Below, one piece after another: positions 2,646-56,083 of a DNA stretch of 64,000 nt (the stretch's first letter is position 1; the number at the start of each line of letters is the position of its first letter). The notes beneath the pieces were generated by a model. It worked only from the letters and a program-made list of their open reading frames with translations, made no database searches and had not been told where the DNA came from. The position numbers and the translations under genes are program-made. The DNA comes from Naegleria gruberi (lineage: Eukaryota), in assembly GCA_000004985.1 (NCBI GenBank), contig GG738915.1. The stretch is one strand, 5' to 3'.

Positions 2646-4607
2646 TCAATTACCAAAATCCAATGGATAGTAACCAACATGATATAGTGGTTCTCTTAGT
2701 GTTGTGTCCTCTAATTTAAATTTCAAATGTTTCTCTGTGCAGTTCAGTAAATGTTCTTCCACTTCTTTGGTTGGATATTCTTCCTTACAACAAGGACAAA
2801 CAGAAAGAGTTCTCAACTGATTGGTATTTTTCTTGCACAGATCAGGTAGATTGTGACAAGTTGCCAAATGTCCAGTTATTAACCGTCTTGGAAAAACCTT
2901 TAAACATCCAGGGCAAGAAATCTCTGCTTCTTGCAGAGCTTGTTTAAATTCCTTTCTCTGTTCTATAATAATGTCGATATCTTGGTCGTAATCAATTTGA
3001 GCCAATGCAGAATTATCATTTGAAATTCTTGGTTTAGTACGAAAAACAAGTTTTGGAATTCTCTCCAGTTGAAGAATTGTTTCATTGTATAGATTAGGTA
3101 ATTTCTTCAATGAGACCCAGCACATTCTCAATGGTTCATCAAGTGTTGTCTTGAGCAAGCTTTCATTTTCAAGAAATTCCATGTATGGGAATGTGAATAA
3201 CAATTTTGAAAGGTTTTTGTAATTTCTTGAAAGAGCAGAAATCAACTCGAAATATTTCACCTCATCATCAGAACCTTGATGTTCATAAAAAGATATTCTA
3301 AAGGTTTCCAGATGAATCATTCCTGAAATGGATTCTCTTACAAGATGACAATCCTTCGACTTGACATCTTCCAATACCAAATGTTTCACATTAACAAATC
3401 CAGAAACGAAAGAACCCAATCTAATTTTCGAAAAAGTATCTCCAATAATCCTTATATACAATTCCTCAATCATTCCTCCAACGCCTCCATAATCAAATGG
3501 AATATTTTGCATTAAGTTTGATTTGAAAAATTCCAATCCCAATGTTAATCTTCTCAATTGTGGATTATTGGCAAGATTTTTACAAAGCTTTTCGAGCGCA
3601 TTTCGAATATCCTGTTCCGTAAGATGTCTTTCAAGGAATTCAGTTGTTATATTATAATCTACCACCCTACTCTTCTCATTGAACACTTCTTTAGCTAATA
3701 ACCCAAAATCTCTTCTATTACTTTTACAAACCAGTAAATTATTACGTGATTCATTATATTCAAACTCTTGCTTGTCATAAAAGTAGAAATTCTCTGAAAA
3801 GTACAAATATTCGAAATGTCCAGAACCGTACCGAGGCAATCTAGTATTGTCAATGACTGCAATTTTTGATTTCATCAAAATATCTCTCAATAAATCCCCA
3901 CTAGAATCCCCAATTACATTTGAAAGTGAAACAAGCTCAGTATCTTTACAAATTTTAACCAACTCTCCCATGGTTTCAACATCCATACTTTCCCATAACT
4001 GTTCTCCATATGGAGATGTTCCATTATTAAACAAGTTAAGTGTAAATCTTCGAAGAGCTGGCTCAGTTAAACTATTTGGAATGTAACCACCTTTCAAACT
4101 CTGCAGTCTTGTGAAAAATTCAATTGATTCTCTCTGTGCTCTATTTGGAATGAAAACTTTCTCATTCCTTGCCAGTGGATTCAAGTTTCCGAATAGACGA
4201 AACTGTTTTCTGCAAATAATATCTTCAATTTGACCATTGATGAATAAATATTTGATTGTCATTCGATTCGATTGGACAAACTTGATCGTGTATCGAACAA
4301 ATGGCAATAGATTTGTTTGAACATTAGTTTCTGTCATGACATTTGGTTGTTCTTCTTCAGATAGGAGCTGGACATTCGGATAGAAATGTAGAGTTTCTAA
4401 TTTTTCAATGACTAATCTTCGCCATGATGAACAAACATGTGGAATAACTTTGATCAACAGGTGAAAATCAAGGTATGGAAATAATCGATAGAAAGCAACT
4501 TCTTCTGGTACCTGTTGATGAAAATACATTTTTTTTAATTGTGTCATATGAACCTTTCGAATATTGTAATAAACGAATCTAAGAAATAATTCAATGGCAT
4601 TGAACAT
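2646..4607 (-). CDS. F-box protein with two C-terminal C2HC (TRAF/FBXO30-like) zinc fingers.
   Basis: The N-terminus carries an F-box-like helix (LPEEVAFYRLFPYLDFHLLIKVIPHVCSSWRRLV). The C-terminus has two C2HC patterns, 'CPGCLKVF...HLATCH' and 'CPCCKEEYP..EHLLNC'. It is a 653-aa intronless ORF. Confidence 0.45.
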   Translation of the reverse strand: MFNAIELFLRFVYYNIRKVHMTQLKKMYFHQQVPEEVAFYRLFPYLDFHLLIKVIPHVCSSWRRLVIEKLETLHFYPNVQLLSEEEQPNVMTETNVQTNLLPFVRYTIKFVQSNRMTIKYLFINGQIEDIICRKQFRLFGNLNPLARNEKVFIPNRAQRESIEFFTRLQSLKGGYIPNSLTEPALRRFTLNLFNNGTSPYGEQLWESMDVETMGELVKICKDTELVSLSNVIGDSSGDLLRDILMKSKIAVIDNTRLPRYGSGHFEYLYFSENFYFYDKQEFEYNESRNNLLVCKSNRRDFGLLAKEVFNEKSRVVDYNITTEFLERHLTEQDIRNALEKLCKNLANNPQLRRLTLGLEFFKSNLMQNIPFDYGGVGGMIEELYIRIIGDTFSKIRLGSFVSGFVNVKHLVLEDVKSKDCHLVRESISGMIHLETFRISFYEHQGSDDEVKYFELISALSRNYKNLSKLLFTFPYMEFLENESLLKTTLDEPLRMCWVSLKKLPNLYNETILQLERIPKLVFRTKPRISNDNSALAQIDYDQDIDIIIEQRKEFKQALQEAEISCPGCLKVFPRRLITGHLATCHNLPDLCKKNTNQLRTLSVCPCCKEEYPTKEVEEHLLNCTEKHLKFKLEDTTLREPLYHVGYYPLDFGN

Positions 4608-4714
4608 CTAAAGTTTATTTCCAATATTTCTCGATCAAAAATTCCAATCCTTTACACAATTTGTATATTCATGTAAAAAGTCTTACTAAATTGACCAAAA
4701 TAATGTAATATAAT

Positions 4715-4936
4715 TTATCTTTTTCTTCCATCATATCTCCAATCATAAAAATCCAGACATTCAATCTCATTAACCGAATCCATATCAATAAAACCAAACT
4801 TCTTCTGACCCTTATTCTTCTTGAGAGATTTACAAGGATTACCAGTATGGCACATATGACAATGAACAACGCGACATTTACCTCTCTGTCTGGTCTTATT
4901 AGTGTGTTTTCCACTCAATTTACCTTCCCTCTTCAT
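4715..4936 (-). CDS. Small basic Cys/His-rich protein, possibly a zinc ribbon. The call is weak.
   Basis: It is a 73-aa ORF with an ATG start, 'GKHTNKTRQRGKCRVVHCHMCHTGNPCKS'. It sits in a tight gap between two larger genes and has no firm homology. Confidence 0.2.
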   Translation of the reverse strand: MKREGKLSGKHTNKTRQRGKCRVVHCHMCHTGNPCKSLKKNKGQKKFGFIDMDSVNEIECLDFYDWRYDGRKR

Positions 4937-21988: not shown

Positions 21989-22362
21989 TTTTTTTGATGA
22001 AGAAATTTGAAAATTCGTAAAGTATCTTCTTTGCTGATGATTCTTGTTCGCTCTTGTTGAATAATCATCAAATAGCAAGTGATAGGATGTGAATTGATGA
22101 ACACGAATTCAAGGTTGGTTTTGGATATGTTGAAGGTTAGAGGAAAATTGCATTTTGTATAGAAGGAGTACAATGTTAATACTCCGAGGGCAGGTAGATT
22201 TTTTGTGTCGAATCGTTTTGGGTATTGTAAGTTCTGTCAGGTAACTTTGCAAATATTTTGTCATACATTTATAATCTTAATGATCACAGTTGAGCTGTTT
22301 TACAATCTTGTTGTAAATTGTAAAGTTTTGGATTTATCAATTCAAATCAGACTGAAAAAAAT

Positions 22363-23528
22363 GGGACAATCACAACCATCGTATCCTGCCTCTACTCCAC
22401 CATGCAATTGTGATGATAAACACAACGTGAGAGAGAGTGTCATTAAAAAGATTGGAAATGTCAGAATGGTTCCGATTGATATTTTCCAAACATTGTTGGA
22501 ACAAGAGGAGAAGAATGATGAGAATTTAATTGATTTATTTAATGAGGAAAATTGTTCGATTTATGAGAAGGAATTACCTCATGAATTATTTATTCATATT
22601 TTAGGATATCTTACAGGGAGTGAAATTGTAAAACTGGGACGAACTTGTAAAAATTTTCAGTTTTATTGGATTAGAAATAGGACCTTGTGGAAAGGGATAT
22701 TGCAAAAGGAAGAACGTGATGATTTTGTTCCTTTCATGTATTTTAGACCAATTTTTGATTCATCAATGATTCAATCTATAATTTATTATCATACATATTT
22801 TATTCCACTTATTAGGAACTCATTCAAACGTAGTGATGAAAAGCAGATAAAAGCTTTTACCAAGACTGTACTGTTAGGACCTGAAGGAAGTGGAAAATCT
22901 GAAATTGTAGCAAGAATTGTCGGTAAAGACTTTGATCCTACTTATACTCCTACAATTGGTATGTTTTTTAATAATATTTTCAGACATTTATAAAGATTTA
23001 TTAGGTGTTGAGTTTGCAATGGTACCATATCAATTAAGCACTGGAATTAATGTTAAAATGCAGTACTGGGATGCTTCAGGCAAACCTACTTTCAACTCAC
23101 TTTCGAGAGCCTACACGAGAGGTGTACATGTAATCGGTTTCTGTTTTGATTTAAACAATGAAGAGTCATTTTCAGAAATGAAGAACAGAGTTGAGATTTA
23201 TAGAAATGAGAATTTTTCAAATTTAAAGTGGAATGCAAACCTGAAGGAGGAAAACGCTCACCTTTTAATTCTCGGAATGAAAAGAGATTTGGAGAGAAAG
23301 GTATCGATACAGCAAGTAAAAGAATACATTTCCGAACTAATTCAAGTAAAAAAGGAAGGAATATTACTGAAAGATTTGAGAATTCAATATTTTGAATTGA
23401 GTAACAAGACAGACACGATAGAAATGATAGAATTTCCGTTTATGTATGGTGTCCTCCAAGTAGAAGATAAGCTGGCAGTCGAAAGTCCACCACAACCTGT
23501 ACATGGTAATCTTCCTGCCAAGAAATAA
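22363..23528 (+). CDS. F-box domain fused to a Ras-superfamily small GTPase. Two exons: join(22363..22958, 22984..23528), with a 25-nt intron.
   Basis: The F-box reads 'LPHELFIHILGYLTGSEIVKLGRTCKNFQFYW'. In exon 1 the G1 P-loop is 'VLLGPEGSGKSEIV' and G2 is 'YTPTIG'. In exon 2 G3 is 'YWDASGKP' and an NKxD-like motif is 'LILGMKRDL'. The exons join across GTATGT(22959)...TTTTCAG(22983). I took the likely start as the ATG at 22363 (MGQSQP..). Confidence 0.55.
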
Positions 23529-23682: not shown

Positions 23683-25404
23683 ATGATAACACCAACAATA
23701 TTCAATAGTGATGTGCGGGGGATGGTTGATGATGAAGATGATTGTCAAATGGTGATTTCACCAATGGAAAGATATTCGGATCATTCATTAGTCAATTTAC
23801 CTTCCGAGATTATTCATTTAATTTGTCAATATTTGCAATCACATGATTTGTTTTATTCATTGTTTGCTTTGAGTAGACATTGGTATGAATCATTGGCAAT
23901 GTATCCAACAATATTTCTGAGAAGATGTAAAAATGCAGAAGGTGCCATACAAGTATTGAGAAATAGATTTAAAGACTTGAGATTTCTTAATTTGAGTGGT
24001 TTGCAATTGTATGACGAAAATGGTTGCAAAACTGATTCATCGAATACTATTCTTAAGGTTTTGAGAGATTCAATGAGAGAGGGATGTACTAAATTGAACT
24101 ATTTCAGAATGGCTAATTGCTTAACTAGTCCAAAACAGGTCAAAGTCGATGAACCACAAAAAACTGAGGAGTTAACGCTCGATGAATATGACATGGTTGG
24201 TGATGGTAATAATTGGATTGCAGAGCCAGCTGGCAATGGCTATGGTGAAGAAGTTATCATTGAAGTTTCTCCGAAATTTATAGAAACAGTTGTGTTTGAA
24301 ATGATGGGACAAATTAAGAAAATTCAAGTAGAAGATATTATTGACCCATACGATGCTAATTGTAATGCCCAACCAAAGGAAGTATCGTTCTACATTTCCA
24401 GATGTAAAAATATTAGCACTGAGGCATTTGAATCGTTGGGTCGTAACCCAAGATTTTGTTCTTCAGTTACCAAAATGATGCTTGAATGGGATGTTGGAGT
24501 CAATAGCCAATCTATTTGCGTAATGTCTCAATATTTTACAAATATTACAAGTTTGAGTATCGCCAATTGTGTTAATATCGATTCTGCTGGTTTTGAGGCA
24601 ATAAGCAAAATGACTGGAATACATACTCTAACCCTAGTTGGTACTACAATTAGGGACGCTGATTTATTAACAATCTCTAAACTTCCAAACCTTAAAAGTA
24701 TCGACTTGACAGGATGTAAGAATACTGTCCAATCTGAGGAAACCATTGTGCAATTCTTGACAAACTGTCCTCAAATGGAAGAGCTATTCCTTGTTGATTG
24801 CAACTTGACTGATTGGACCTTGCATATTATTAAGGAAAAGCTCAAGAATTTGAAATTCTTGGACATTTCTTGGAATGTAGATTTCACAGATGAAGGAATG
24901 TTTAATATTCTTGGAGAATTACCAAACCTCGAAAGCTTTAACATTACCACTGGTGCAAAAATTGAATTAGCCATTCTACTAAAGGATGATAACTCGTTAT
25001 TGGCCTCGAGTGAGGATGTTGGAAAGGACCTCTATACCCCTCTCTTACCAAAGCTCACCAAATTGAACTTGAGCATGAGAAACTATCAGTGTAATGAAAG
25101 TATACAAGCTGTTTTAAGAAATACTCCTAATTTAGTATCCCTCCAACTATCTGGTTGTTCTCGCCTTACAGACGATTCCTTCTCTAACATTAATCCAAAA
25201 ATTTATCCTCTTCGTAAATTGAAAGAAGTTCACTTGATGCGTTGCTCTTGGTTGACTGACGAAAGTCTCAACAAGCTCATGCCACTTTGCATTTCAAGCC
25301 TAGAAAATCTATTCCTCCAAAGATCCAAATTCTCTAAACAAAAAATCGATGAATGGAAATATAAACTCGAGAATATCAAGAAAATTGGTTATCCAAAAAG
25401 GTAA
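23683..25404 (+). CDS. F-box/LRR-repeat protein (FBXL/SKP2-like, with cysteine-containing LRRs).
   Basis: The F-box reads 'LPSEIIHLICQYLQSHDLFYSLFALSRHWYE'. It is followed by CC-type LRRs ('LTGCKNT', 'LSGCSRLTDDSFSN', 'HLMRCSWLTDESLNKL'). It is 573 aa. Confidence 0.65.
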   Translation: MITPTIFNSDVRGMVDDEDDCQMVISPMERYSDHSLVNLPSEIIHLICQYLQSHDLFYSLFALSRHWYESLAMYPTIFLRRCKNAEGAIQVLRNRFKDLRFLNLSGLQLYDENGCKTDSSNTILKVLRDSMREGCTKLNYFRMANCLTSPKQVKVDEPQKTEELTLDEYDMVGDGNNWIAEPAGNGYGEEVIIEVSPKFIETVVFEMMGQIKKIQVEDIIDPYDANCNAQPKEVSFYISRCKNISTEAFESLGRNPRFCSSVTKMMLEWDVGVNSQSICVMSQYFTNITSLSIANCVNIDSAGFEAISKMTGIHTLTLVGTTIRDADLLTISKLPNLKSIDLTGCKNTVQSEETIVQFLTNCPQMEELFLVDCNLTDWTLHIIKEKLKNLKFLDISWNVDFTDEGMFNILGELPNLESFNITTGAKIELAILLKDDNSLLASSEDVGKDLYTPLLPKLTKLNLSMRNYQCNESIQAVLRNTPNLVSLQLSGCSRLTDDSFSNINPKIYPLRKLKEVHLMRCSWLTDESLNKLMPLCISSLENLFLQRSKFSKQKIDEWKYKLENIKKIGYPKR

Positions 25405-25439
25405 ATAAAATATTAATAAAAATTTAAAATTAGAAAAAA

Positions 25440-36480: not shown

Positions 36481-38592
36481 ATGGTTAAGACTTCAATTGG
36501 AAGAGAAAAACAAAAGGCATCCATTGTTAATATTGCCACAAGAAGATTACTCAAGGATTTGAAGGAAATTAATGAAAATCCACTGCCTGATATTGTGGCA
36601 GCTCCCGTAGATGCAGAGAAAAATCTATTTGAATGGAGAGCCAATTTAAAGGGATTTGGGTCTTATGAAGGAGGAATATTTCACATTAGGCTAACCTTTC
36701 CAACTGACTACCCAATCAAACCACCAACTGTTGAATTGTGTACACCAATTGATCATCCAAATATCATTGGCAAATCAATATGTTTAGACATGTTGGGAGA
36801 TGCATGGTCAACAGCTTACTCTGTGCAATCAATTTTACTCCAATTACAATCCATATTATTGGATGACGAGAGAGTGGATGAGATGGCAACTATTAACCCA
36901 AAGCAATACAAGCAAAAAAAGAAGGAAATAGTTGACGCTTGTAAGTGGGCAGTTGAGCAATCTTTGAGATTTTCAGACCCTTCTGTTGGCCATTTTCCTC
37001 CTGCAAAGCCGTTCCCAAAGTTTCAAACAGCACAGGCAAAAGTTATTGATTTGAATGAGTTTACCAAATCTGAGCTTGTTTGCTATTTCTCCAGAAGTTC
37101 CTATGAGGAAGATGTGCTTGGTTATGGTATCACCTTTACAAAGAATATTAGAACTGGAAGAATTAATTTGATCCAATCAACTCTTGAGTTGTTATCTTTG
37201 AGATCATTTATGAATTATTCCATTAGAAAAACATCGAATGGTGATGAATTTACTCATTGGATGCCTATTTTCGTTGAGCCAAACCATGGTAAAAAGGCAA
37301 TGCACTTGGCTAAACGTTCAATTTCAATGATTTGCACAGGTAATGCAAAGAATTTCAAACCTGAACAAGTTATGGAAGTATTTCCAAAGATTCTGACAAC
37401 TATTTCTGTTGACATTATGACTACACAGAAGAAGCATGGTTCTATCAGAGCATTGAAGATCTATTGTCATTACTATAGAACATTTTTGGAGTTTGTGAAG
37501 GAATATCCAGAATTATTGGTAACAATTAATAATAATGTTAAGAGATTTATTGATTCTGAGGATAACAGACACAAAGACGTGACTCCAAATTTAGGAGAAC
37601 TATTGGCAATCCTTCCATTGAGTGATTACTCTTGGAAGGACATTTCAAGTGCATACATTGAGGAGTCGTTTACTAGAAATGTATTTTGGCTTCTTAATAG
37701 ATATAAAGAATTAGAAATGGAAAATTGCAAAGAATTCGATGACATGGATCGTCTCAAATATTCATTTGAAACAAGTAAGGCCAGTCAGAAATTGTTAATG
37801 TTGAACATATTCATTTTAGAAAACATTGCAAGACCTGAAAGAACTGAAATTGAAGAAATCAGAAATGAGTTTGATAATAGACTTGGTAGATTGAATCCAA
37901 CAGATGAAGATTCCTGTTTAGAAACATTGAAAAAAATTAACTGTGTCAAAAACTACTTGGAATTCTTTGAGTTTGTTGGAATGAGTCAGGTCAAGGAAGA
38001 TCAAATTGTTGAACTATTGAAGCAATCTATCAAGAAGAGTAAGACTAAGGGATACCATGGATCTACTATCTATGTTATGAGTCCTGAAGAGTTCCAAAGA
38101 CACACTAAGAAATTGGACGAATATCTAATTAATGATGGACAAGGAAATTACATACTCGAAACCAATGAAGAGAAGTGGAAAACAGGCTGTATACAAAGAT
38201 GGGGTACGGTTAAATATCCTGACTATTTGGAAAACCTCTCAAATCCTTGGCGAAAACTCTACTTGCAGTACAATTTACAAGACTTGATTTCTTCATTGAA
38301 TGAATCTTGTGATTTCAAGTATCTCCATCATGTTTTGGAACTTTGTGTTGAGATTCCAAGATTGGAAATTGTCATGTTTAATCCAGAAAAGTTGAAGAGC
38401 AAATACTACTTCCTCACGCTTGTATTGACTAAACTTGTGAATTTGGACACCTTAACAATTTCAAGAGGTGAAACTGGTTTGGGAACATCAGGTTTCCGTG
38501 CTCTTATTAAAGGGCTTTCTAATAATCAAGCCAAATTAGAGAATTTGATTTTAGACAGTTGTGATATTACAGCTAGTTGTGTTGAGAATTAA
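36481..38592 (+). CDS. Protein with a ubiquitin-conjugating enzyme (UBC/E2) domain at the N-terminus and a long extension that ends in RNI-type LRRs. It probably continues into the next ORF.
   Basis: The UBC fold reads 'FEWRANLKGFGSYEGGIFHIRLTFPTDYPIKPPTVELCTPIDHPNIIGKSICLDMLGDAWSTAYSVQSILLQLQSIL', with HPN and the catalytic Cys. The last 50 aa ('LSNNQAKLENLILDSCDITASCVEN') already read as an LRR. Confidence 0.6.
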   Translation: MVKTSIGREKQKASIVNIATRRLLKDLKEINENPLPDIVAAPVDAEKNLFEWRANLKGFGSYEGGIFHIRLTFPTDYPIKPPTVELCTPIDHPNIIGKSICLDMLGDAWSTAYSVQSILLQLQSILLDDERVDEMATINPKQYKQKKKEIVDACKWAVEQSLRFSDPSVGHFPPAKPFPKFQTAQAKVIDLNEFTKSELVCYFSRSSYEEDVLGYGITFTKNIRTGRINLIQSTLELLSLRSFMNYSIRKTSNGDEFTHWMPIFVEPNHGKKAMHLAKRSISMICTGNAKNFKPEQVMEVFPKILTTISVDIMTTQKKHGSIRALKIYCHYYRTFLEFVKEYPELLVTINNNVKRFIDSEDNRHKDVTPNLGELLAILPLSDYSWKDISSAYIEESFTRNVFWLLNRYKELEMENCKEFDDMDRLKYSFETSKASQKLLMLNIFILENIARPERTEIEEIRNEFDNRLGRLNPTDEDSCLETLKKINCVKNYLEFFEFVGMSQVKEDQIVELLKQSIKKSKTKGYHGSTIYVMSPEEFQRHTKKLDEYLINDGQGNYILETNEEKWKTGCIQRWGTVKYPDYLENLSNPWRKLYLQYNLQDLISSLNESCDFKYLHHVLELCVEIPRLEIVMFNPEKLKSKYYFLTLVLTKLVNLDTLTISRGETGLGTSGFRALIKGLSNNQAKLENLILDSCDITASCVEN

Positions 38593-38618
38593 CAAAAGGA
38601 TCTCTGAGCTCTTGTAAC

Positions 38619-40418
38619 TTGAAACGTATTGCTCTATGTGGAAATCCACTGGGAGATCAAGGAGCCAATTACCTGTCCAAATTCCTAATGAGACATGAAA
38701 ATGTTCCCCATCTACGTGAGTTGGATCTTTCTCGCTGTGGAATTAGACAAAATGGAGCTGAATGTATTGCTGAAGCTTTGCTAGTAAAGAGGGAAATTAC
38801 ATCCTTCAAATTTATTGGAAATCCATCAGAGCAAGGACTGTATACCATATTGAAACACTTGGGATACTCCTCATGTATTGCGGAGATTGATTTCAGTATG
38901 ACTAGTTCTATTGTAGCCAATGGTAATTCTGAAAGTATGGTCAAACTGTTGGATCTTTCCACAACTCTCAAGAAGATTAACTTGTGGAAAGCTAATGGAT
39001 TCCACATTCTCACCCAAGAAGTATTCAACAGAATTGGTAAATCAAAGAGTTTGAAAGATATTGATATGGCCGAAACAAAATTCAAAGATATTTCACTATT
39101 TGCTTTCGCTTTGAAAGATAACTACGTATTGGAAACTTTGAATCTATCAAATAATGATATCAAACTCTCTGAGGTGTATCAATTATATTGTAGATTACTT
39201 TTGTTACACTTTGAGAATGCTAACAAAACGAGAGAATTCTTGGATGGACCTAATGCTGCTGTCCCACCAAAGCTTGTCCATTTACAAAAGCTAACTCTAT
39301 CTAAGAATAATTTAACTAATCTATTACAGTCAAATATCAAAGAGGCAATTAGTATTGGTCAAATAATGAAAATGTGTACAAATTTGAATTATTTGGATTT
39401 ATCGGGATGTAAAATTGACAAAACTCATATGGAAGGAATTGCAGCAGCTTTGGATCCTAAATTCAACCTTCCTCTCAAAACTCTCAAATTGAATAATAAT
39501 GAGATTGGCAAAACAGGTTTGAGACCACTTGCCTCTATAATGAAACTCAATACTACCATTGAAGATTTGGACCTCTCTGGTAATGATTTGGGAGTTACAG
39601 GAAGTGTTTCATTAGCTGAAATCATTACAAATAACTCTTCCATCAAGAAATTGAACATATTCTCATGTTTTGTTCAAATTGAAGGAATTGACATTATTTC
39701 CAAAGCATTACAACAAAACACATCAATCACAGATTTGGATATTGGTTTGAATTCAGCCAAAGAAAGAGGAGCTCTTTCAATTATTGAAATGCTCAAACAA
39801 AATACCACTCTTAAGAGGCTTGGACTCAAATTGAATCATTTAAGTGACAAGACATGTACACAAATTGCCAATATCATTGCTATTGAAAATCCTAAATCCG
39901 CAATTCAATATTTAGCTCTTTCTGGTAATTCTCTTTCAATTTCAACAAGTTCCAATATTTCCATAGTTCTAAACTCTGTAAAGGATAGAGTAATTGAGTT
40001 TGATCTTACCAAATTGGTTGAAGTGAAAGATACAGAAAAACAAAATAGAACTATTTATCTTTCACCACTTCCAAACTCAATTACAATTCAAGATATCAAG
40101 AAATTCTTCTATCAACACAAATGTGGAGCTATATTGAATGTCTACATTCACAAACATAAGACTCCCAATAAGAAGACCAGACTCAACAAGTATGCCTTTG
40201 TAGAGTTTGCTCATCCAGACTCACTTCAATTGGCCATACGTTTGAGATATTCTAATAGACCAGAAAAGAAATCTCCAAATGTTGTAAAGCTTTTGAAGAG
40301 AATTCGTGGAAATGATGGTAAGAAAACTAAAGCAAAATGGTATGAATCCAAGCTCATCATCACCAAATCAGGCAATCAACTTCACAATGAAAGAGCCAAA
40401 AAGAAAATCAAACATTAA
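38619..40418 (+). CDS. RNI-like (ribonuclease-inhibitor-type) LRR protein with a C-terminal RRM. It is probably the 3' part of the UBC gene upstream.
   Basis: It carries more than 12 repeats of about 28 residues ('LDLSGCKIDKTHMEGIAAAL', 'LKLNNNEIGKTGLRPLASIM', 'LDLSGNDLGVTGSVSLAEII'). The C-terminal RRM reads 'RTIYLSPLPNSITIQDIKKFF...KYAFVEFAHPDSLQLAIRL'. The track start is a TTG, and the reading frame is open 33 nt upstream of it. Confidence 0.6.
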   Translation: MKRIALCGNPLGDQGANYLSKFLMRHENVPHLRELDLSRCGIRQNGAECIAEALLVKREITSFKFIGNPSEQGLYTILKHLGYSSCIAEIDFSMTSSIVANGNSESMVKLLDLSTTLKKINLWKANGFHILTQEVFNRIGKSKSLKDIDMAETKFKDISLFAFALKDNYVLETLNLSNNDIKLSEVYQLYCRLLLLHFENANKTREFLDGPNAAVPPKLVHLQKLTLSKNNLTNLLQSNIKEAISIGQIMKMCTNLNYLDLSGCKIDKTHMEGIAAALDPKFNLPLKTLKLNNNEIGKTGLRPLASIMKLNTTIEDLDLSGNDLGVTGSVSLAEIITNNSSIKKLNIFSCFVQIEGIDIISKALQQNTSITDLDIGLNSAKERGALSIIEMLKQNTTLKRLGLKLNHLSDKTCTQIANIIAIENPKSAIQYLALSGNSLSISTSSNISIVLNSVKDRVIEFDLTKLVEVKDTEKQNRTIYLSPLPNSITIQDIKKFFYQHKCGAILNVYIHKHKTPNKKTRLNKYAFVEFAHPDSLQLAIRLRYSNRPEKKSPNVVKLLKRIRGNDGKKTKAKWYESKLIITKSGNQLHNERAKKKIKH

Positions 40419-41737: not shown

Positions 41738-41787
41738 TTTCTAACAACAACTTTCGTATTGAACTTTCCAATAAATTATATTAAAAA

Positions 41788-43400: not shown

Positions 43401-45173
43401 TTAGTTGTCGTCTACTGTACTCTCCTTTAACACAGCATCTTCAAAATTTTGGATTTGATGATCAATAAAGTGTTGAAAACGAGAACAGTCACTAACTTTC
43501 CATTCAATTTCATTCCATTTCGAAAGTAATTTAAACATCATGCTGGAGAAAGAGGATAGATCTTTAAGAATTTGAACTTTTTTCAATTTTGGTGGTTTAA
43601 ACTGTTGCAATAACTCAATATCTTTGTACGATGAAAATGTACATTCCAATGCAATTAAATTCTCATAGTTTTTACCCAATTCTTCAAAAAATTCTTTTGG
43701 AAATTCTCCAATTGTACAAATAATACTTAAATATTCCAAATTTCTCAGTACATCCAATTTAATAAAATCCATCAATTGCTCCTTTCCACTGATTACCACT
43801 GATAATCTCCTTAAATGTTTTAAATGTTCAATCTTTTCCAAATTTTGAGAGATATCTGAATTTGTAAACAGCGATTCCAAATTATTCAAACATTCATTAG
43901 AAAACATATTAAAATCTATATCTCCTAGGACTTTGATACGTAAATGCTTCAAATTTTTAACTAAGCTCAAATTACTCAAACTAAATGCCAAATCTTTGGT
44001 CGCATATAAATTAAATACTAATATTTCTAAATTTCTCAATGTATTATTACTGAAAAATTTTTCAGTGTCCTTAAATACTCTCGAAACTATTTTCAATATT
44101 TTCAGATTTGAAAAGTTATATTTCCATACATGATTAAGACAATAACTGGCTTGATCAGTGTCTTGTGAATAATCAATCCTTAAGTATTTTAAATTTAGAA
44201 TCATATCAGTGTCAACAACCTCATCATCTTGCTCACTTGCATCTATCATGTATGCTTTTAAAATTTCTAATGTTTTAATATTATTTAGAAGCATTATTAG
44301 TTGCTTTTCACCATCGAGCTGTATATCCAAAACTGAGAGGAGTTTCAAATTTAAAATCCGAGAAATATTACTAAATAGATCATCAATTCTCAATATTCTA
44401 AGACAGTCAGTATAATTATTGATAATTGGTGATAGTTTTTTCATAATATCATACTCCTCCATTGAAATATCTAAAAGTTTCAAATTATATAAATTTCTGT
44501 CTTTTAATTCTATTTTGTTATAACTAGTTTTAATTTTTATAAATTGTATGGTAGGTTTCTTGAAATGGAATGTGAAAGTTTTATCATTTTCCTCAAATAA
44601 CCTCTTAATGACAAGGTGTTTGATGTTTACACATTTGAGAATTAATTTTAATAGAGAATCGGGTTCATACTGAGAAAGTATTTCCAAATTTTCTATTTGA
44701 ATTAAATCACAGTTAGGTATTAGAGTAGATTTCCTTATCAATAAATTTTTAATAGTATTAATAACATTCCTAAATTGTTTTGAAACTGTCAAGTATTTAA
44801 AAATCTCAAAATCATAATTTAAATATGCAAATATGTTACATAATACATCATCACAAAATAATTCCGAACAGGTTTTGATTTGTTTGGTTTTCAACAGTTT
44901 ATCGTGATCCATATCTTGATCACTAATTTCCTCAAATTTGCGTTTGTTCTTATTTTCATCAGTGCTACTTCCATTTGATTTTAATTTACATAATTCAATT
45001 TCCAATTTTAATTCTTCCTGTCTTGCTTTTGCTTTGGCTTCTTCTTGAGTGAATTGTAATTTCAACTTCCACAATTCAAATATTTGCTCCGAAGAGAGTC
45101 CAAGCCTTTGACATTGTTCAATGAAACCATCAGAGTCCCCACCATCCTTTAACACAGCATTTTGTTGCGGCAT
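43401..45173 (-). CDS. F-box-like/LRR protein with an N-terminal coiled coil.
   Basis: The coiled coil ('QEELKLEIELCKLK') is followed by an F-box-like segment ('CDDVLCNIFAYLNYDFEIFKYLTVSKQFRNVI') and then many LRRs ('LKHLRIKVLGDIDFN', 'LEYLSIICTIGEFP'). Confidence 0.5.
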   Translation of the reverse strand: MPQQNAVLKDGGDSDGFIEQCQRLGLSSEQIFELWKLKLQFTQEEAKAKARQEELKLEIELCKLKSNGSSTDENKNKRKFEEISDQDMDHDKLLKTKQIKTCSELFCDDVLCNIFAYLNYDFEIFKYLTVSKQFRNVINTIKNLLIRKSTLIPNCDLIQIENLEILSQYEPDSLLKLILKCVNIKHLVIKRLFEENDKTFTFHFKKPTIQFIKIKTSYNKIELKDRNLYNLKLLDISMEEYDIMKKLSPIINNYTDCLRILRIDDLFSNISRILNLKLLSVLDIQLDGEKQLIMLLNNIKTLEILKAYMIDASEQDDEVVDTDMILNLKYLRIDYSQDTDQASYCLNHVWKYNFSNLKILKIVSRVFKDTEKFFSNNTLRNLEILVFNLYATKDLAFSLSNLSLVKNLKHLRIKVLGDIDFNMFSNECLNNLESLFTNSDISQNLEKIEHLKHLRRLSVVISGKEQLMDFIKLDVLRNLEYLSIICTIGEFPKEFFEELGKNYENLIALECTFSSYKDIELLQQFKPPKLKKVQILKDLSSFSSMMFKLLSKWNEIEWKVSDCSRFQHFIDHQIQNFEDAVLKESTVDDN

Positions 45174-45549: not shown

Positions 45550-47531
45550 ATGAAAATAACGCTCGGTTTCAAACCAGGCGTTTTTAATGCTCTTGTTCAA
45601 GTGCCTGATCTTTTCAGTGTTATTCTTCAATATTTGGATTGTTCCTCATTGTTTGCCCTAACGATGGTGAATAAGAAATTATTTGGATTATTTGATGAGA
45701 GTAAAATTGATGAATTGGTTCAATCATCATCGGAAGAGGTGTTGAACGTTGTGACAATTGATCCTAATTTATGGTTGAATTTGGTTTCATACTATGAAGA
45801 AAGGTTGAGAAAATTAAAATTGGAGTTTAATTCTAACGATTTGTAAGTTGGCTTATCAAGTAGTTGAATATTTACTTGTTTTCTAAAAGCTATCGATACT
45901 ATCCAATGAACGTAAATTTTCAAGAATATATTGAGCTTGTGAAGCCAAAAACAACAGAGAAGGAAAATGTAAAAACTAGCAGTATTAGAGAAATACTTGA
46001 AATTATTGTTGACTGTAGGAAAAAATTGAAAAGGTTGTACTCTGATTGTTGGAAACAAAAGAAACCTGAAGAATATGGTGTTGAGTTTTCCAAGAGTGGA
46101 AGATCTAGTTGTAAAACTTGTTTTAAGCCAATTCCATACGGAGTTCTCAGAGGCTATCAGGACAACCACGAAAACTATTACAAAGCTCATGAATGTCACC
46201 ATTTGACTTGCTTTTATAAAATACTATTGACTGAAAATGTACGTGAAGAAGATGTGAAATATGAAGAGGAGAAACAAAAAGCAGCCATTTCCAAGCTTTA
46301 TGAGTTTATAGCAAAGGAGAAAAAATTAATACAGAAATCAAAGTGGCAATGCACCACTTGTGATGGATGTAATGTACTATTGAATGGAGATGCATACATG
46401 TCAGCAGAAAAAGGAAAGATGGATCTATGTGCAAAGTGCTATGTCACTAACGATGAGCTGGTTTCTGGAAAAAGTGAGAAGGGGCCTTTTGTCCCTACCC
46501 CTCCTTTAAAACCTTTCCAAAAATGTAGATATTGTAAGGAACAGATCAAAAGGGTCTTATTTAATTGTCATCAATGTAATATTGGCTTTTGTGGAGAGTG
46601 TTTAAAATCCTTAAGGTGGTTTGATCACAAAAAACACTTTATTAATGTAATTGGAAATGCTCTTGATGATGAAATGAAATGTTTAACTGCTGACTTCAAA
46701 CCTGAAGATGCTAAACCATTACCAGTGAGTGCTTATGAAAGGTTTTCTGTTCTGGATTTGATGGAAGAATTTTTAGGAGAATCTAAAAGGGATGCAGGTC
46801 AACCAACTCCTTCTGAAAGATTCACAGCTACCCCCAACAAGAAAACAGATCTATCAGGGATAAAGTCACAAAAAACTGCAACAATTACAAAACCAAGTAA
46901 TAACGAATCTAACCACTCTTCTAAAACCAACACTCAACCAAAGAAGCCAGAAAGTACAAAACCAACAACCGAAAAACAAGTTCAAAGCAACTTGAAACTC
47001 TCCAAATCGCAACAAGCTAGTTCCAAGACAATCCCTCAGAAGTCTTCTGTTCAACAAACTCTTTCATCAACAACTTCTAAAAAAAGAGTTTTAATTGAAT
47101 TGAGCTCTGATGAAGAATCAGAAGATGAAATCGATCTAAAGAAATTAGAGGCAACTACAGGATCTAATGAGATTCCAAAATTAAAACCTGAAGTAGTTAT
47201 TGCCTCAAAAGTTGAACCAGCCAAGAAGAAATCAAAACAAGAGAAATCCAAGAAGAAAGAAAGCAAGGAAAAAACAAAAAAGAAAAAACCAAAGAAAGAA
47301 GAAAACAGTGATGAAGAGAATGACGAAATCTACCTTGTGGAAAAGCTGTTGGATAGAAAAATAGTGCATGGAAAGCCATACTATCTAGTAAAGTGGGAAG
47401 GTTATCCCAACTCAGATAACTCGTGGGAACCAAACAACAATATTTCACCAGATCTAATTGAAGATTTTGAGGAGGAATTTGAGAAAAACAAGCCACGAGT
47501 AGCAAGCAAGACGAAGAAGAGAAAAATATAG
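45550..47531 (+). CDS. Protein with an F-box-like domain, ZZ-type zinc fingers and a C-terminal chromodomain. Two exons: join(45550..45842, 45890..47531).
   Basis: Exon 1 ('LVQVPDLFSVILQYLDCSSLFALTMVNKKLFGL', F-box-like) ends at GTAAGT(45843). The 47-nt intron ends in CTAAAAG. Exon 2 carries ZZ fingers ('WQCTTCDGCNVLLNGDAYMS..CAKCY', 'CRYCKEQIKRVLFNCHQCNIGFCGEC') and a canonical chromodomain 'EIYLVEKLLDRKIVHGKPYYLVKWEGYPNSDNSWEP'. Confidence 0.65.
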
Positions 47532-48914: not shown

Positions 48915-48997
48915 CTCTTTAGTCCAAAACAACATTATCTCCACAAGATTTTGACATTTACCACATCAAGATTGTAACTAACATTGAAAAAAACAGA

Positions 48998-54265: not shown

Positions 54266-54325
54266 TAAATTAATTTATTTTGAATTTCTTACAAATTGTT
54301 TATCTCATTCCTAAATGAAGTTGTT

Positions 54326-56083
54326 CTATTGTACAAGGCATTTACTACCGCTTGGTGTTGGCTTCTTTCCCAAGATATTCATCTTTGTAAATGGAGTCCT
54401 GGTTGTTGGACAACTTGCAATTAAAATATCACCATTTCCATCTCCTCCAATTAAAGCTTCATCATCCATTTCCAAACTCATTACTCCACTTGTAGGAATA
54501 AAGTTTACAACTTTCCAAGGACAGTTCTTAGTATCATTTCCAACCATCACTCCAGATTTGATAAATTTATCAATTTGTGGTGCTTCAGCAAGTTTTGAAC
54601 CATTCAATGATTGAGCAAATTCATCTGTTGTCATAACGACAACTCCAAGCTTGGATCCAACCACAATCTTTTGACCATCAAATTGTAATCCTCTAATAGC
54701 TCCCAATCTGAAAACATCCATATCATATAATATAGAAGGATCTGGATTTTCCTCTTTTGATGAAGAAGATGAAGAAACTTTTCTATAGTCAATAATTTGA
54801 ATAAATCCTCTATCAGATCCAGCTAGGAATAGATATTTTCCTGCCGATGGATCAAAGCATGAAGCATTGACTTCATAGAGATATGCATCAGTAAATACCT
54901 CTCCCACAACATTGGAAGATCTTGTATCGAAAATCTTGATATACTTATCTGCAGAGGCAGTAAGAAAGAGATCTGAATATCTTCCAGATGGATTACAATC
55001 GACATCATAGATTGCACTCTTGTGAGTGGAAACACCATTCTTATCACAAATCAAAGTTTTCACTTCTTTCATAGTGGAAGCATCGAATATTTTGGCCACA
55101 CCATCAGCTCCACCAGTTACAAAGCTACTTTCATTAATAATTCTCAAATTCCATATACCATTCTTGTGATTGTGGGGAACACGTCCGATATTCTTCATAA
55201 TTTCCCCATCCTCAGCCTCTGGATCATAGGAACCATAATTCAATATATTGGAAAATCCTCCAGTCACTAGAAAGTTTGGAATTCTATGTTGTTGAGTATC
55301 AATGCACCACAGCAAACTTCTCTCTTCATAAGTTTCCTTCCATTCATATTTATATTCTACATTGCTTACATATTGAGTTTCATCATCAAATGCAGCTTTT
55401 CCATTCACTTCAATATCATAAAAATTAACACTGTGAGAACAGGTCATTAAATGAATCTTGTTATGATCACTGGTCGATCTTAGGAATGTCAGATAATTAA
55501 TTCCAACACCAGGATCTGGTAATTCAGGTTTCTTCTCACAAGAAGCAAATGTCTTTTTATGATTGATAAAGAAATCATTTTCCATTTGATTTTCCTCTCC
55601 TTCTCTATATCCTCTAAATTTATACCATCCCTTATAGAGTGTCAAATGTTCATATTTGAAAATTTCATAGAGTGAATGCGCATTTGTATTCTCAAAAACT
55701 CGACGTCTTACTATACTTTTTTGTGAGGGAGGAATTTCAAGGTGGGTTTTTTCATCATTTGTTGAAGATGAATTATTTTCATTTCTAATAAATTGTTTCC
55801 ACAATGCATCATTCCTCGATGTATACAAAAAGGTTGAATTTACCAATGAAATATTTAAAATAATTTCCCTATATTCAAGGAATGAAAATATGAGAATTAA
55901 AACATCTTCGGGAACATCAGTTACATGATCCAATGAAGAATCACCCAATTTAAATGGTCCTATTTCATCTACATTATTAGTAGAAACTACTCTTTCCGAA
56001 ACATCATTTAAAACATTTTCATTTGGTTGATCATCAACATCTTCATCAACATGAGAGGATGAACCTGTTGGTTGTTGAAGCAT
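54326..56083 (-). CDS. F-box/WD40-repeat protein (FBXW-like).
   Basis: The F-box reads 'VPEDVLILIFSFLEYREIILNISLVNSTFLYTSRNDALWKQF'. The WD repeats read 'VTGGADGVAKIFD', 'LTASADKYIKIFD' and 'LAGSDRGFIQIIDY'. Confidence 0.7.
   Translation of the reverse strand: MLQQPTGSSSHVDEDVDDQPNENVLNDVSERVVSTNNVDEIGPFKLGDSSLDHVTDVPEDVLILIFSFLEYREIILNISLVNSTFLYTSRNDALWKQFIRNENNSSSTNDEKTHLEIPPSQKSIVRRRVFENTNAHSLYEIFKYEHLTLYKGWYKFRGYREGEENQMENDFFINHKKTFASCEKKPELPDPGVGINYLTFLRSTSDHNKIHLMTCSHSVNFYDIEVNGKAAFDDETQYVSNVEYKYEWKETYEERSLLWCIDTQQHRIPNFLVTGGFSNILNYGSYDPEAEDGEIMKNIGRVPHNHKNGIWNLRIINESSFVTGGADGVAKIFDASTMKEVKTLICDKNGVSTHKSAIYDVDCNPSGRYSDLFLTASADKYIKIFDTRSSNVVGEVFTDAYLYEVNASCFDPSAGKYLFLAGSDRGFIQIIDYRKVSSSSSSKEENPDPSILYDMDVFRLGAIRGLQFDGQKIVVGSKLGVVVMTTDEFAQSLNGSKLAEAPQIDKFIKSGVMVGNDTKNCPWKVVNFIPTSGVMSLEMDDEALIGGDGNGDILIASCPTTRTPFTKMNILGKKPTPSGSKCLVQ

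What the first reader, a model, noticed from the sequence alone, without database searches (positions are those of the whole stretch)
2646..56083. Dense cluster of eight F-box genes with atypical substrate-adaptor fusions
The window holds eight F-box genes:
- F-box with C2HC zinc fingers (2646-4607);
- F-box with a Ras-like GTPase (22363-23528);
- F-box/LRR (23683-25404);
- F-box/LRR (28935-30422);
- F-box/LRR (43401-45173);
- F-box with a ZZ zinc finger and chromodomain (45550-47531);
- F-box/WD40 (54326-56083);
- the UBC-LRR gene described separately, which has SCF-like LRRs.

That is about one F-box gene per 8 kb. It suggests a lineage-specific expansion of SCF substrate receptors. An F-box fused to a complete small GTPase, and an F-box fused to ZZ and chromo domains, are not standard architectures. 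They could target chromatin or GTPase-signalling components for ubiquitylation.
Basis: partly seen in the sequence, partly recalled or inferred. Interest (0 to 1): 0.55.

Follow-up and report, generated by a model that had tools for sequence, protein, structure and literature searches.

The report
Scattered unrelated F-box genes in Naegleria
This stretch of the published Naegleria gruberi genome carries five supported and two possible F-box (ubiquitin-ligase adaptor) genes scattered among ordinary genes; they are not copies of one another, and the most striking one, an F-box fused to a small GTPase, is already described in the literature.

Summary
The window is a Naegleria gruberi NEG-M scaffold (exact matches to XP_002670447, XP_002670493 and XP_002670494).

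F-box status of the eight genes listed:
- Three pass Pfam's curated F-box cut-offs: the GTPase fusion, 43401-45173 and the WD40 gene.
- Two fall just below the cut-offs but have FBXL-type or RNI-type leucine-rich repeats (LRRs): 23683-25404 and 28935-30422.
- Two have only weak, motif-level support: 2646-4607 and the chromodomain gene.
- The UBC-LRR gene has no F-box.

No two of the proteins are detectably similar to each other. About 28 unrelated genes lie between them on both strands. This is therefore not a tandem array.

The F-box-GTPase gene is XP_002670446. Herman et al. 2021 list it, with the same corrected 373-aa model, among the Naegleria F-box Rab-like GTPases. That architecture is already known.

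The chromodomain gene is really F-box(?) + PARP-type zinc finger + ZZ-like fingers + chromodomain. It has no full-length relative among 1.84 billion representative proteins and appears to be unannotated. This is the only mildly new item.

I could not test whether 5-7 F-box genes per 64 kb exceeds the genome background, because no genome-wide count was obtainable.

The parts
2646..4529 (-). g1: 627-aa protein, starting at MYFHQQ (the ORF extends to 4607). It has a conserved N-terminal F-box-like segment, a leucine-rich middle region and two C-terminal zinc fingers.
   Evidence: ORF. Paralogue P0012 (48% identity, another N. gruberi scaffold) and the 96%-identical P0011. No Pfam F-box hit.
4380..4514 (-). 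g1 putative F-box (QVPEEVAFYRLFPYLDFHLLIKVIPHVCSSWRRLV...). Motif-level evidence only.
   Evidence: 40 of 51 N-terminal positions are invariant across the three sequences, against 51% identity overall to the paralogue. Local HMM E 0.006 and 10.2 bits, but shuffled decoys score as high. No PDB hit. The AF2 model is unusable (pLDDT 35).
2739..2915 (-). g1 two zinc fingers: CPGC-x11-H-x4-H and CPCC-x11-H-x3-C. They resemble UBZ-type ubiquitin-binding fingers.
   Evidence: The Cys and His ligands are invariant in the paralogue. Weak convergent Pfam hits to UBZ_FAAP20, zf_UBZ and zf-WRNIP1_ubi, E 0.03-0.08.
22361..23528 (+). g2: F-box-Rab-like GTPase, 373 aa, two exons (22361-22958 and 23005-23528) with a 46-nt GTATGT...TAG intron. 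It is XP_002670446.
   Evidence: The identical corrected model is listed as 'Rab ... F-box' in Herman et al. 2021 Table S8.
22571..22702 (+). g2 F-box (aa 71-114).
   Evidence: PF12937 30.4 bits against a cut-off of 24.3. 8 of the 13 weak PDB hits are F-box proteins: FBXW7, KDM2A, FBXO31, SKP2 and FBXW8.
22862..23414 (+). g2 GTPase domain (aa 168-336, spanning the intron). Motifs: G1 GPEGSGKS, switch I PTIG, G3 WDASGK (Lys in place of the catalytic Gln), G4 MKRD, G5 SNK. There is no C-terminal Cys.
   Evidence: PF00071 Ras 78.6 bits. Motifs read from the translation. Paralogue P0010 shares WDSSGK and MKRD.
23683..25404 (+). g3: F-box/LRR protein of FBXL type (XP_002670447), 154 bp downstream of g2. 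F-box-like segment at 23791-23889.
   Evidence: Exact match and the NCBI name. F-box-like 16.3 bits, E 0.008, and LRR_4 and LRR_6 above cut-off. Best PDB hits are FBXL17, FBXL2, SKP2, Rad7 and KDM2A/B.
28935..30422 (-). g4: F-box plus RNI-type LRR protein. F-box at 30279-30380.
   Evidence: PF00646 19.1 bits, E 0.0012, cut-off 20.5, and LRR_4 above cut-off. PDB hits are ribonuclease inhibitor, GALA protein and NLRP1 LRRs.
43401..45173 (-). g5: F-box protein (XP_002670493) with an N-terminal charged/helical region and a leucine-rich C-terminal region of unconfirmed fold. F-box at 44748-44855.
   Evidence: Exact match, and UniProt names it 'F-box domain-containing protein'. PF00646 21.6 bits against a cut-off of 20.5. 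No LRR by Pfam or PDB.
45550..47531 (+). g6: 644-aa model, exon 1 45550-45842 and exon 2 45890-47531, with a 47-nt GTAAGT...AAG intron. It lies head-to-head with g5, 376 bp apart. Weak F-box at 45607-45705. PARP-type zinc finger at 46083-46334. Two ZZ-like fingers at about 46368-46631. Chromodomain at 47331-47474.
   Evidence: Model. Chromo 56 bits and F-box 15.5 bits, E 0.017. zf-PARP 33.5 bits, E 7e-8, and ZZ_ADA2 20.6 bits, E 5e-4. No full-length relative or self-hit.
54326..56083 (-). g7: F-box/WD40 protein (XP_002670494). F-box at 55790-55918. WD40 region at about 54629-55291.
   Evidence: Exact match. F-box-like 25.8 bits, F-box 21.3 bits and WD40 38.7 bits, all above cut-off. The PDB hits are generic WD40 proteins.
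36481..40418 (+). UBC(E2)-LRR-RRM gene.
   Evidence: UQ_con 94 bits, LRR_6 63 bits and RRM_1 32 bits, with no F-box hit. No hit with the local F-box HMMs.

Best explanation
This is an ordinary, gene-dense stretch of the Naegleria gruberi nuclear genome. Five to seven of its roughly 35 genes happen to encode F-box proteins.

Each one is an independent, mutually unrelated member of Naegleria's diverse F-box repertoire. An N-terminal F-box, which is the Skp1-docking module of SCF (Skp1-Cul1-F-box) ubiquitin ligases, is joined to a different recognition module in each gene:
- a divergent Rab-like GTPase (g2);
- FBXL-type LRRs (g3);
- RNI-type LRRs (g4);
- an uncharacterised leucine-rich region (g5);
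- WD40 repeats (g7);
- possibly a PARP-type zinc finger, ZZ-like fingers and a chromodomain (g6);
- possibly UBZ-like zinc fingers (g1).

The inferred mechanism is the standard one. The F-box binds Skp1-Cul1-Rbx1, and the C-terminal module selects the substrate. For g2, selection may depend on nucleotide state. Its catalytic Gln is replaced by Lys and it has no prenylation site, so it probably acts as a soluble, slowly hydrolysing recognition module. Alternatively, it is itself the protein being turned over.

Shown here: domain content, gene models, lack of paralogy between the genes, and the published status of g2. Inferred: Skp1 binding, ubiquitylation, and the identity of any substrate.
For: - Organism and annotation: exact protein matches to N. 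gruberi NEG-M on a 260,018-bp scaffold.
- Domains: Pfam scans and PDB sequence matches.
- Not paralogues: in all-against-all BLASTP of the nine proteins, the best pair has E 0.001 in a nine-sequence database and aligns non-equivalent regions.
- Interspersed with unrelated housekeeping genes: Rce1-like protease, GINS Psf1, saposin-like, TFIIB, prolyl-tRNA synthetase, cation exchanger, CWC25, GMC oxidoreductase, actin-like, TPT transporter, PIP5K and a C9orf72-like protein.
- Paralogues of g1 and g2 lie on other scaffolds, 395 kb and 782 kb long.
- g2 is listed in Herman et al. 2021 Table S8. Their text says the F-box is the most frequent extra domain on Naegleria Rab, Rho, Ran and Galpha GTPases. 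It also says three Naegleria-specific Rab-like clades carry an N-terminal F-box. F-box use is therefore widespread across this genome.
Against: - If N. gruberi has only a few hundred F-box genes, then 5-7 in 64 kb would be a real local excess. The Poisson expectation is under 0.1 such window genome-wide at 300 genes. I could not obtain the count.
- Two adjacent pairs exist: g2/g3 in tandem 154 bp apart, and g5/g6 head-to-head 376 bp apart.
- The F-boxes of g1 and g6 are below every curated threshold, and both structure predictions failed.
- No expression or Skp1-binding data were available.
Confidence: 0.7

Rival explanations
1. This is a genuine F-box hot-spot. It could be an old local array whose members kept the F-box but swapped or diverged their C-terminal modules beyond recognition. 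It could also be a chromosomal neighbourhood that favours the birth or retention of F-box genes, for example by local exon shuffling of an F-box cassette.
For: - 5-7 of about 35 genes (14-20%) carry an F-box.
- There are two directly adjacent pairs, g2/g3 and g5/g6.
- The Poisson model makes this density unusual unless the genome has at least about 500-1200 F-box genes.
- In g6 the F-box lies in its own short exon, which would suit exon shuffling.
Against: - There is no detectable similarity between any two of the genes, even between the F-box segments beyond the generic motif.
- The known paralogues are on other scaffolds.
- The genes lie on both strands and are separated by many unrelated genes.
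- Herman et al. show that the F-box is used very widely in this genome, so the background rate may be high.
Confidence: 0.2
2. g1 and g6 are not F-box proteins at all. Their N-termini are unrelated short helical segments that only resemble the loose F-box motif. The window then holds five F-box genes, and there is no 'F-box + chromodomain' or 'F-box + zinc finger' architecture.
For: - g1 and its paralogue give no Pfam F-box hit at E <= 1 to 10.
- g6 scores only 15.5 bits against a cut-off of 20.5.
- Neither N-terminus hits any F-box protein in the PDB.
- Shuffled decoys reach the same score with my F-box HMM.
- The AF2 models are of low confidence.
Against: - Among 555 real six-frame ORFs, these two N-termini are the two best non-seed hits with both home-made HMMs, and at the expected N-terminal position.
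- For g6, F-box is the only Pfam family reported for the N-terminal segment.
- The N-terminal 50 residues of g1 are its most conserved part. They contain VPEE...YL...VCxxWxxL. By my reading, matching this to the F-box consensus needs two one-residue insertions.
Confidence: 0.35
3. The g6 'fusion' is a gene-model artefact. The 98-codon upstream ORF (45550-45843) and the zinc-finger/chromodomain ORF, starting at Met104 (MNVNF...), would then be separate transcripts.
For: - No transcript or protein record supports the junction. The exact 644-aa and 541-aa products are both absent from the 15-billion-sequence collection.
- No homologue shows the same architecture.
Against: - The 47-nt interval has a canonical GTAAGT donor, whose TAA is the stop that ends the upstream ORF, a T-rich tract and an AG acceptor. 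Removing it joins the two ORFs in frame.
- Its size and ends match the 46-nt g2 intron, whose removal gives the published g2 model.
- About 60 nt between the upstream ORF's stop and Met104 leaves little room for a separate promoter. This last point is inference.
Confidence: 0.15

Closest known systems
Naegleria F-box Rab-like GTPases (Herman et al. 2021, BMC Biol 19:142, Additional files 4 and 10)
   Same: g2 is one of them. XP_002670446.1 is listed with the identical corrected 373-aa sequence and tagged 'F-box'. It has an N-terminal F-box, a divergent Rab-like GTPase, and no close relatives outside Naegleria.
   Different: Nothing differs at the level of family membership. This member lacks the CaaX motif that one of the three published subgroups carries. 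That is read from the sequence.
TbFRP, the FYVE-F-box-GTPase of Euglenozoa (Exp Parasitol 2013, PMC3593210)
   Same: It combines an F-box with a Ras-like GTPase in another discoban lineage. Its authors also infer a link to SCF-mediated turnover.
   Different: TbFRP has an N-terminal FYVE domain that binds PI3P, and g2 has none. The authors found no Naegleria orthologue. I did not compare the two sequences directly.
Rab40 (GTPase + SOCS box, Cul5 adaptor) and RhoBTB (Rho GTPase + BTB, Cul3 adaptor)
   Same: A small GTPase domain is fused to a cullin-adaptor docking module. From established knowledge, the GTPase serves as the substrate or effector recognition part of a cullin-RING ligase. Herman et al. 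note that RhoBTB is present in Naegleria.
   Different: The docking module differs: an F-box pointing to Skp1/Cul1, rather than a SOCS box or BTB domain. The domain order differs from Rab40, with the adaptor N-terminal here. No biochemical data exist for the Naegleria proteins.
FBXL family (SKP2, FBXL2, FBXL17) and FBXW family of SCF substrate receptors
   Same: g3 has an F-box plus LRRs whose best PDB matches are FBXL17, FBXL2 and SKP2. g7 has an F-box plus WD40 repeats. Both are textbook architectures.
   Different: No orthology to a particular animal or yeast FBXL or FBXW protein was shown. The WD40 region of g7 matches only generic WD40 proteins.
KDM2A/KDM2B (FBXL11/FBXL10): chromatin-targeted F-box proteins
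   Same: If the g6 F-box is real, g6 joins an F-box to DNA- and chromatin-reading modules in one polypeptide, as KDM2 does with CXXC and PHD. The KDM2 architecture is established knowledge. The KDM2A F-box is among the PDB hits of the g2 F-box.
   Different: The reader modules are entirely different: a PARP-type zinc finger, ZZ-like fingers and a chromodomain. g6 has no JmjC domain and no LRRs. The g6 F-box is sub-threshold. No homologue with this combination was found among 1.84 billion representative proteins.

Membership tests
F-box protein (SCF substrate receptor) | F-box domain scoring above the curated Pfam cut-off (PF00646 at 20.5 bits or PF12937 at 24.3 bits) | tested here: inconclusive
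   Met for g2 (30.4 bits), g5 (21.6) and g7 (25.8 and 21.3). Just missed for g4 (19.1) and g3 (16.3). Missed for g6 (15.5). No hit for g1 or for the UBC-LRR gene.
F-box protein (SCF substrate receptor) | F-box placed N-terminal to a separate protein-interaction module | tested here: met
   The C-terminal modules are a GTPase (g2), LRRs (g3, g4), WD40 repeats (g7), a chromodomain and zinc fingers (g6) and zinc fingers (g1).. The C-terminal region of g5 is unclassified.
F-box protein (SCF substrate receptor) | Binds Skp1 and assembles with Cul1/Rbx1 | not testable with these tools
   No complex prediction or experiment is available. The single-chain AF2 models of g1 and of g6 exon 1 were of low confidence (pLDDT 35 and 51).
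Tandem or locally expanded gene cluster | Members are paralogues, more similar to each other than chance allows | tested here: not met
   All-against-all BLASTP found no significant pair. MAFFT alignment of the seven F-box segments has no invariant column. The paralogues of g1 and g2 are on other scaffolds.
Tandem or locally expanded gene cluster | Members are contiguous, not interrupted by unrelated genes | tested here: not met
   Only g2/g3 and g5/g6 are adjacent. About 28 unrelated genes on both strands lie in between.
Tandem or locally expanded gene cluster | Local density above the genome-wide background | not testable with these tools
   The N. gruberi genome is not in any searchable collection here. 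No published count was found.
Naegleria F-box Rab-like GTPase clade (Herman et al. 2021) | Listed in their curated table, with an N-terminal F-box followed by a divergent Rab-like GTPase | tested here: met
   XP_002670446.1 appears with the identical sequence and the tag 'F-box'. F-box-like 30.4 bits and Ras 78.6 bits.
Chromodomain protein | Chromo domain above the Pfam cut-off | tested here: met
   g6 aa 579-626 scores PF00385 56.1 bits against a cut-off of 25.1. 4972 library proteins matched at E <= 0.001. For 149 of the 150 listed, the best-matching stretch lies in the chromodomain end of the query.
ZZ-type zinc finger | ZZ HMM above cut-off, with the Cys/His ligand pattern CxxC-x(n)-CxxC-x(n)-CxxC-x(n)-H-x3-H | tested here: inconclusive
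   ZZ_ADA2 scores 20.6 bits, E 5e-4, below the cut-off of 27.5, in 2 stretches. The second finger (CRYC...CHQC...CGEC...H...H) has the full ligand pattern by eye. The first lacks the middle CxxC.
PARP-type zinc finger | PF00645 match with CxxC...HxxC ligands | tested here: inconclusive
   33.5 bits, E 7e-8, but below the cut-off of 39.3. The motif SKSGRSSCKTC...HHLTC is present. This region is the best-matching stretch against P0060, a 1376-aa protein built of repeated PARP-type fingers (11 matched stretches in all).
UBZ-type (Rad18/WRNIP1/FAAP20) ubiquitin-binding zinc finger | C2HC/C2H2 finger matching a UBZ HMM | tested here: inconclusive
   g1 C-terminus: UBZ_FAAP20 E 0.035, zf_UBZ E 0.077 and zf-WRNIP1_ubi E 0.083, all below their cut-offs. 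The ligands are conserved in the paralogue.

The most novel reading that the evidence does not exclude
g6 (45550-47531) may be a real, previously unannotated SCF substrate receptor with a unique architecture: F-box, PARP-type DNA-break-sensing zinc finger, ZZ fingers and a methyl-lysine-reading chromodomain. Such a protein would recruit SCF to damaged or marked chromatin. No protein with this combination exists among 1.84 billion cluster representatives. As a secondary possibility, unrelated F-box genes might be non-randomly co-located in the Naegleria genome.
Probability: 0.25. Interest if true: 0.4.

Novelty: new member of a known kind. Interest (0 to 1): 0.2.

Why it matters
It matters little as it stands. 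The window illustrates something already reported for Naegleria. This amoeboflagellate attaches the F-box to many different modules, including small GTPases, which suggests that GTPase-dependent ubiquitylation is common there (Herman et al. 2021).

Two things add some value:
- Two gene models look absent or wrong in the public annotation. g6 seems unannotated. The RefSeq model of g2 removes 52 in-frame residues.
- g6 has a one-off architecture that would link SCF to chromatin, if its weak F-box is real.

A genome-wide census could also show whether unrelated F-box genes cluster physically. That would be a modestly interesting fact about genome organisation.

Tried and rejected
- Structure prediction. 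AF2 on g1 with a 3-sequence alignment gave pLDDT 35. AF2 on g6 exon 1 as a single sequence gave pLDDT 51. Both are too poor for fold search, so no fold search was run.
- PDB sequence or profile searches with the g1 family profile, the g1 N-terminus and the g6 N-terminus found no F-box hits.
- Homologue searches were thin. g2 returned only two N. gruberi proteins. g6 returned none. g1 returned one paralogue plus a near-identical metagenome copy. An exhaustive HMMER search of g6 exon 2 gave essentially chromodomain matches (149 of the 150 listed) plus one PARP-finger repeat protein.
- Genomic context look-ups for N. gruberi proteins were 'not on record'. The rest of the genome could therefore not be sampled.
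- Six literature searches and several paper look-ups for a genome-wide N. gruberi F-box count found nothing. The 2010 genome paper is not held.
- Giant-virus or metagenome origin was tested for the low-GC F-box genes g4 and g5, and for g6. No relatives turned up in IMG/VR or JGI metagenomes.
- A regex LRR count did not detect even the bona fide LRRs of g3, so I discarded it.
- pN/pS between the window and the near-identical metagenome strain rests on too few differences to interpret. The GMC comparison was misaligned.
- MAFFT alignment of the seven F-box segments was poor in its C-terminal half, so it was not used as a profile.

Full report
**Source of the window.** The window is 33% G+C and densely coding, with long ORFs on both strands and few, very short introns. 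Exact-sequence look-ups identify it as Naegleria gruberi NEG-M, on a 260,018-bp scaffold:
- 23683-25404 is XP_002670447, 'F-box-containing LRR repeat protein'.
- 43401-45173 is XP_002670493.
- 54326-56083 is XP_002670494.
- Several neighbouring genes also match.

The region therefore comes from a genome published in 2010 and publicly annotated.

**Gene models.**
- The GTPase gene (g2) needs one 46-nt intron, 22959-23004, GTATGT...TAG. Removing it restores the Ras-family switch-I motif PTIG|VEF and gives a 373-aa protein.
- The RefSeq model of g2 (P0009, 321 aa) also removes 52 in-frame residues. A paralogue (P0010) conserves those residues, so my model is the better one. It is identical to the corrected model published by Herman et al. 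2021.
- The chromodomain gene (g6) needs one 47-nt intron, 45843-45889, GTAAGT...AAG. This joins a 98-codon first exon in frame to the long ORF.
- The other five genes are single ORFs.

**Checking the F-boxes.**
- Pfam hmmscan puts three genes above the curated cut-offs:
  - g2: F-box-like 30.4 bits.
  - g5: F-box 21.6 bits.
  - g7: F-box-like 25.8 bits and F-box 21.3 bits.
- Two genes fall just below the cut-offs:
  - g4: 19.1 bits, E 0.0012.
  - g3: 16.3 bits, E 0.008.
- Both near-threshold genes have supportive context:
  - NCBI names g3 an F-box protein.
  - The LRRs of g3 match FBXL17, FBXL2, SKP2, Rad7 and KDM2 best in the PDB.
  - The LRRs of g4 are RNI-type and match ribonuclease inhibitor, a GALA protein and NLRP1.
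- g6 scores only 15.5 bits (E 0.017), and only when its N-terminus is scanned alone.
- g1 gives no F-box hit, nor does its paralogue.
- The UBC-LRR gene has UQ_con, LRR_6 and RRM_1 but no F-box. It should not be counted.

**Extra tests on the weak F-boxes.**
- I built two small F-box HMMs:
  - The first used five seeds: the Pfam-supported F-boxes in the window.
  - The second used ten seeds. It added three PDB F-boxes taken and two published Naegleria ones.
- I ran both over all 555 six-frame ORFs of 40 aa or more.
- In both runs the best non-seed hits were the predicted N-termini of g6 and g1, and nothing else stood out.
- With 5,550 shuffled decoys added, however, two decoys scored as high. 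This is suggestive only.
- Single-sequence and profile searches of the g1 and g6 N-termini against PDB sequences found no F-box protein.
- The g2 F-box, searched alone, returned FBXW7, KDM2A, FBXO31, SKP2 and FBXW8 among its 13 weak hits.
- AlphaFold2 models of g1 (pLDDT 35) and of g6 exon 1 (pLDDT 51) were too poor to use.
- In favour of g1, its first ~50 residues are the most conserved part of the protein. 40 of 51 positions are invariant across g1, a 96%-identical metagenome copy and a 48%-identical paralogue.
- Tally: three firm, two probable, two weak, one wrong.

**Is it a cluster?**
- All-against-all BLASTP of the nine proteins finds no significant pair.
- An alignment of the seven F-box segments has no invariant column.
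- The paralogues that do exist lie on other scaffolds. P0012 (for g1) is on a 395-kb scaffold and P0010 (for g2) is on a 782-kb scaffold.
- Between the F-box genes lie unrelated genes on both strands:
  - Rce1-like protease, GINS Psf1, saposin-like protein, TFIIB and prolyl-tRNA synthetase;
  - a cation exchanger, CWC25, GMC oxidoreductase and an actin-like protein;
  - a 355-aa predicted protein, the UBC-LRR-RRM gene, a TPT transporter and an alpha/beta hydrolase;
  - a Frag1-family membrane protein, PIP5K and a C9orf72-like protein.
- Only g2/g3 (tandem, 154 bp apart) and g5/g6 (head-to-head, 376 bp apart) are adjacent.
- This is not a tandem or local expansion.

**Is the density above background?**
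- I could not determine this.
- The N. gruberi genome is not in any collection I could scan.
- No paper in the library gives a genome-wide count.
- I took 41 Mb and 15,727 genes from my own knowledge of the 2010 genome paper.
- On those figures a Poisson model says 5-7 F-box genes per 64 kb is ordinary only if the genome has roughly 500-1200 or more F-box genes. At 300 genes it would be a clear outlier.

**The F-box-GTPase.**
- This architecture is already described, and so is this exact gene.
- Herman et al. 2021 (BMC Biol 19:142) re-annotated the Ras superfamily in N. gruberi.
- Their Table S8 lists XP_002670446.1 with the same 373-aa sequence, tagged 'F-box'.
- Their supplementary text makes three relevant statements:
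  - Three Naegleria-specific clades of divergent Rab-like genes have a conserved N-terminal extension that is identifiable as an F-box.
  - The F-box is the most frequent additional domain on Naegleria GTPases (Rab, Rho, Ran, Galpha).
  - This points to GTPase-dependent ubiquitination.
- A FYVE-F-box-GTPase (TbFRP) is also known from Euglenozoa.
- Reading the g2 sequence adds some detail:
  - The P-loop (GPEGSGKS) and switch I are intact.
  - The residue after DxxG is Lys rather than the catalytic Gln (WDASGK).
  - The NKxD motif is MKRD.
  - There is no C-terminal cysteine for prenylation.
  - Paralogue P0010 shares the WD-x-SGK and MKRD features.
- I infer a soluble GTPase that binds nucleotide but hydrolyses it slowly, serving as the recognition end of an SCF ligase. 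This is functionally analogous to Rab40-SOCS/Cul5 and RhoBTB/Cul3, which are established knowledge.

**The 'ZZ + chromodomain' gene (g6).**
- The chromodomain is solid at 56 bits.
It scores 33.5 bits, E 7e-8, below the cut-off of 39.3. It is also the best-matching stretch against P0060, a protein built of repeated PARP-type fingers.
- The ZZ call is weak: ZZ_ADA2 20.6 bits, E 5e-4. The second finger does have the full ligand pattern.
- An exhaustive HMMER search of exon 2 against 1.84 billion representatives found no self-hit and no full-length relative. It returned chromodomain proteins (149 of the 150 listed) plus that one PARP-finger protein.
- UniProt accessions run in order along the scaffold. 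Only one (D2VZS4) falls between g5 (D2VZS3) and PIP5K (D2VZS5). The ORFs there suggest at least three genes.
- g6 is therefore probably missing from the public annotation.
- Its architecture is unique as far as these searches reach. The F-box is the weakest part, and the exon junction has no transcript support.

**g1.**
- The two C-terminal fingers are real.
  - CPGC-x11-H-x4-H: the conserved ligands suggest C2H2 for this one.
  - CPCC-x11-H-x3-C.
- All ligands are invariant in the paralogue.
- They give weak but convergent hits to three ubiquitin-binding zinc-finger families.
- An F-box protein with UBZ-like fingers would be a plausible reader of ubiquitylated substrates. Both ends of that statement are sub-threshold.

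**Verdict.**
- The window shows the already-reported habit of Naegleria of combining the F-box with many partner domains.
- It is not a tandem expansion, and its headline fusion is published.
- The remaining novelty is a probably unannotated gene with a one-off domain combination, plus an untested question about physical co-location of unrelated F-box genes.

Noticed in passing
window 38480-38700 (within the UBC-LRR-RRM gene, 36481-40418): The UBC ORF ends at TAA 38590-38592. The RNI-type LRR pattern nevertheless continues without a break in the -1 frame (…LDSCDITASCVE / LTKGSLSSCNLKRIALCGNPLGD…). This could be a 1-nt assembly error, a real frameshift, or a very short non-canonical intron such as 38558-38598 (GTTGTG…AAAAG, 41 nt).
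   Followed up: partly
window 45173-52313: UniProt accessions run in order along the scaffold. Only one (D2VZS4) lies between g5 (D2VZS3) and PIP5K (D2VZS5). The ORFs suggest at least three genes there: g6, an alpha/beta hydrolase (47745-48914) and a multi-exon Frag1/DRAM-like membrane protein (48998-51649). The public annotation seems incomplete in this stretch.
   Followed up: partly
window 22361-23528: The RefSeq model of g2 (P0009, 321 aa) removes 52 in-frame residues (FYWIRN…IPLIR) that paralogue P0010 conserves. P0010 itself is truncated at the N-terminus and loses most of its F-box. Herman et al. give corrected models for both.
   Followed up: yes
window 32114-34177 (-): A 687-aa ORF (XP_002670492, 'predicted protein') sits in the most G+C-rich 2 kb of the window (0.41 against about 0.33). 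It has no Pfam hit and forms a singleton cluster. Its origin is unknown and foreign origin was not tested.
   Followed up: no
window 11852-13693 (+): This gene encodes a C9orf72-like (DENN-type) protein, PF15019 62.9 bits, with a His/Asn/Gln-rich N-terminus.
   Followed up: no
window 57435-57588: A 154-N assembly gap interrupts coding sequence on the minus strand (ORFs 56603-57430 and 57427-57936).
   Followed up: no
L001 (matches window 23363-27943) and L002 (matches window 2604-4749): Contigs from ENA metagenome assembly ERZ929261 (PRJEB11402) are 99.0% and 97.4% identical to the window. The gene order is the same: g2 C-terminus, g3, CWC25, GMC oxidoreductase. A near-identical Naegleria strain is therefore present in that metagenome. 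g1 differs at 24 non-synonymous and 14 synonymous sites, none of them in its first 63 residues.
   Followed up: partly
window 28001-30000 and 44001-46000: The two lowest-G+C 2-kb bins of the window (0.27 and 0.29) coincide with the F-box genes g4 and g5. No close relatives were found in IMG/VR viral contigs.
   Followed up: partly
window 60508-62755 (+): A run of same-strand ORFs (461, 136 and 111 aa) has Cys/His-rich segments and no Pfam hits. It may be a multi-exon or degraded gene of unknown kind.
   Followed up: no
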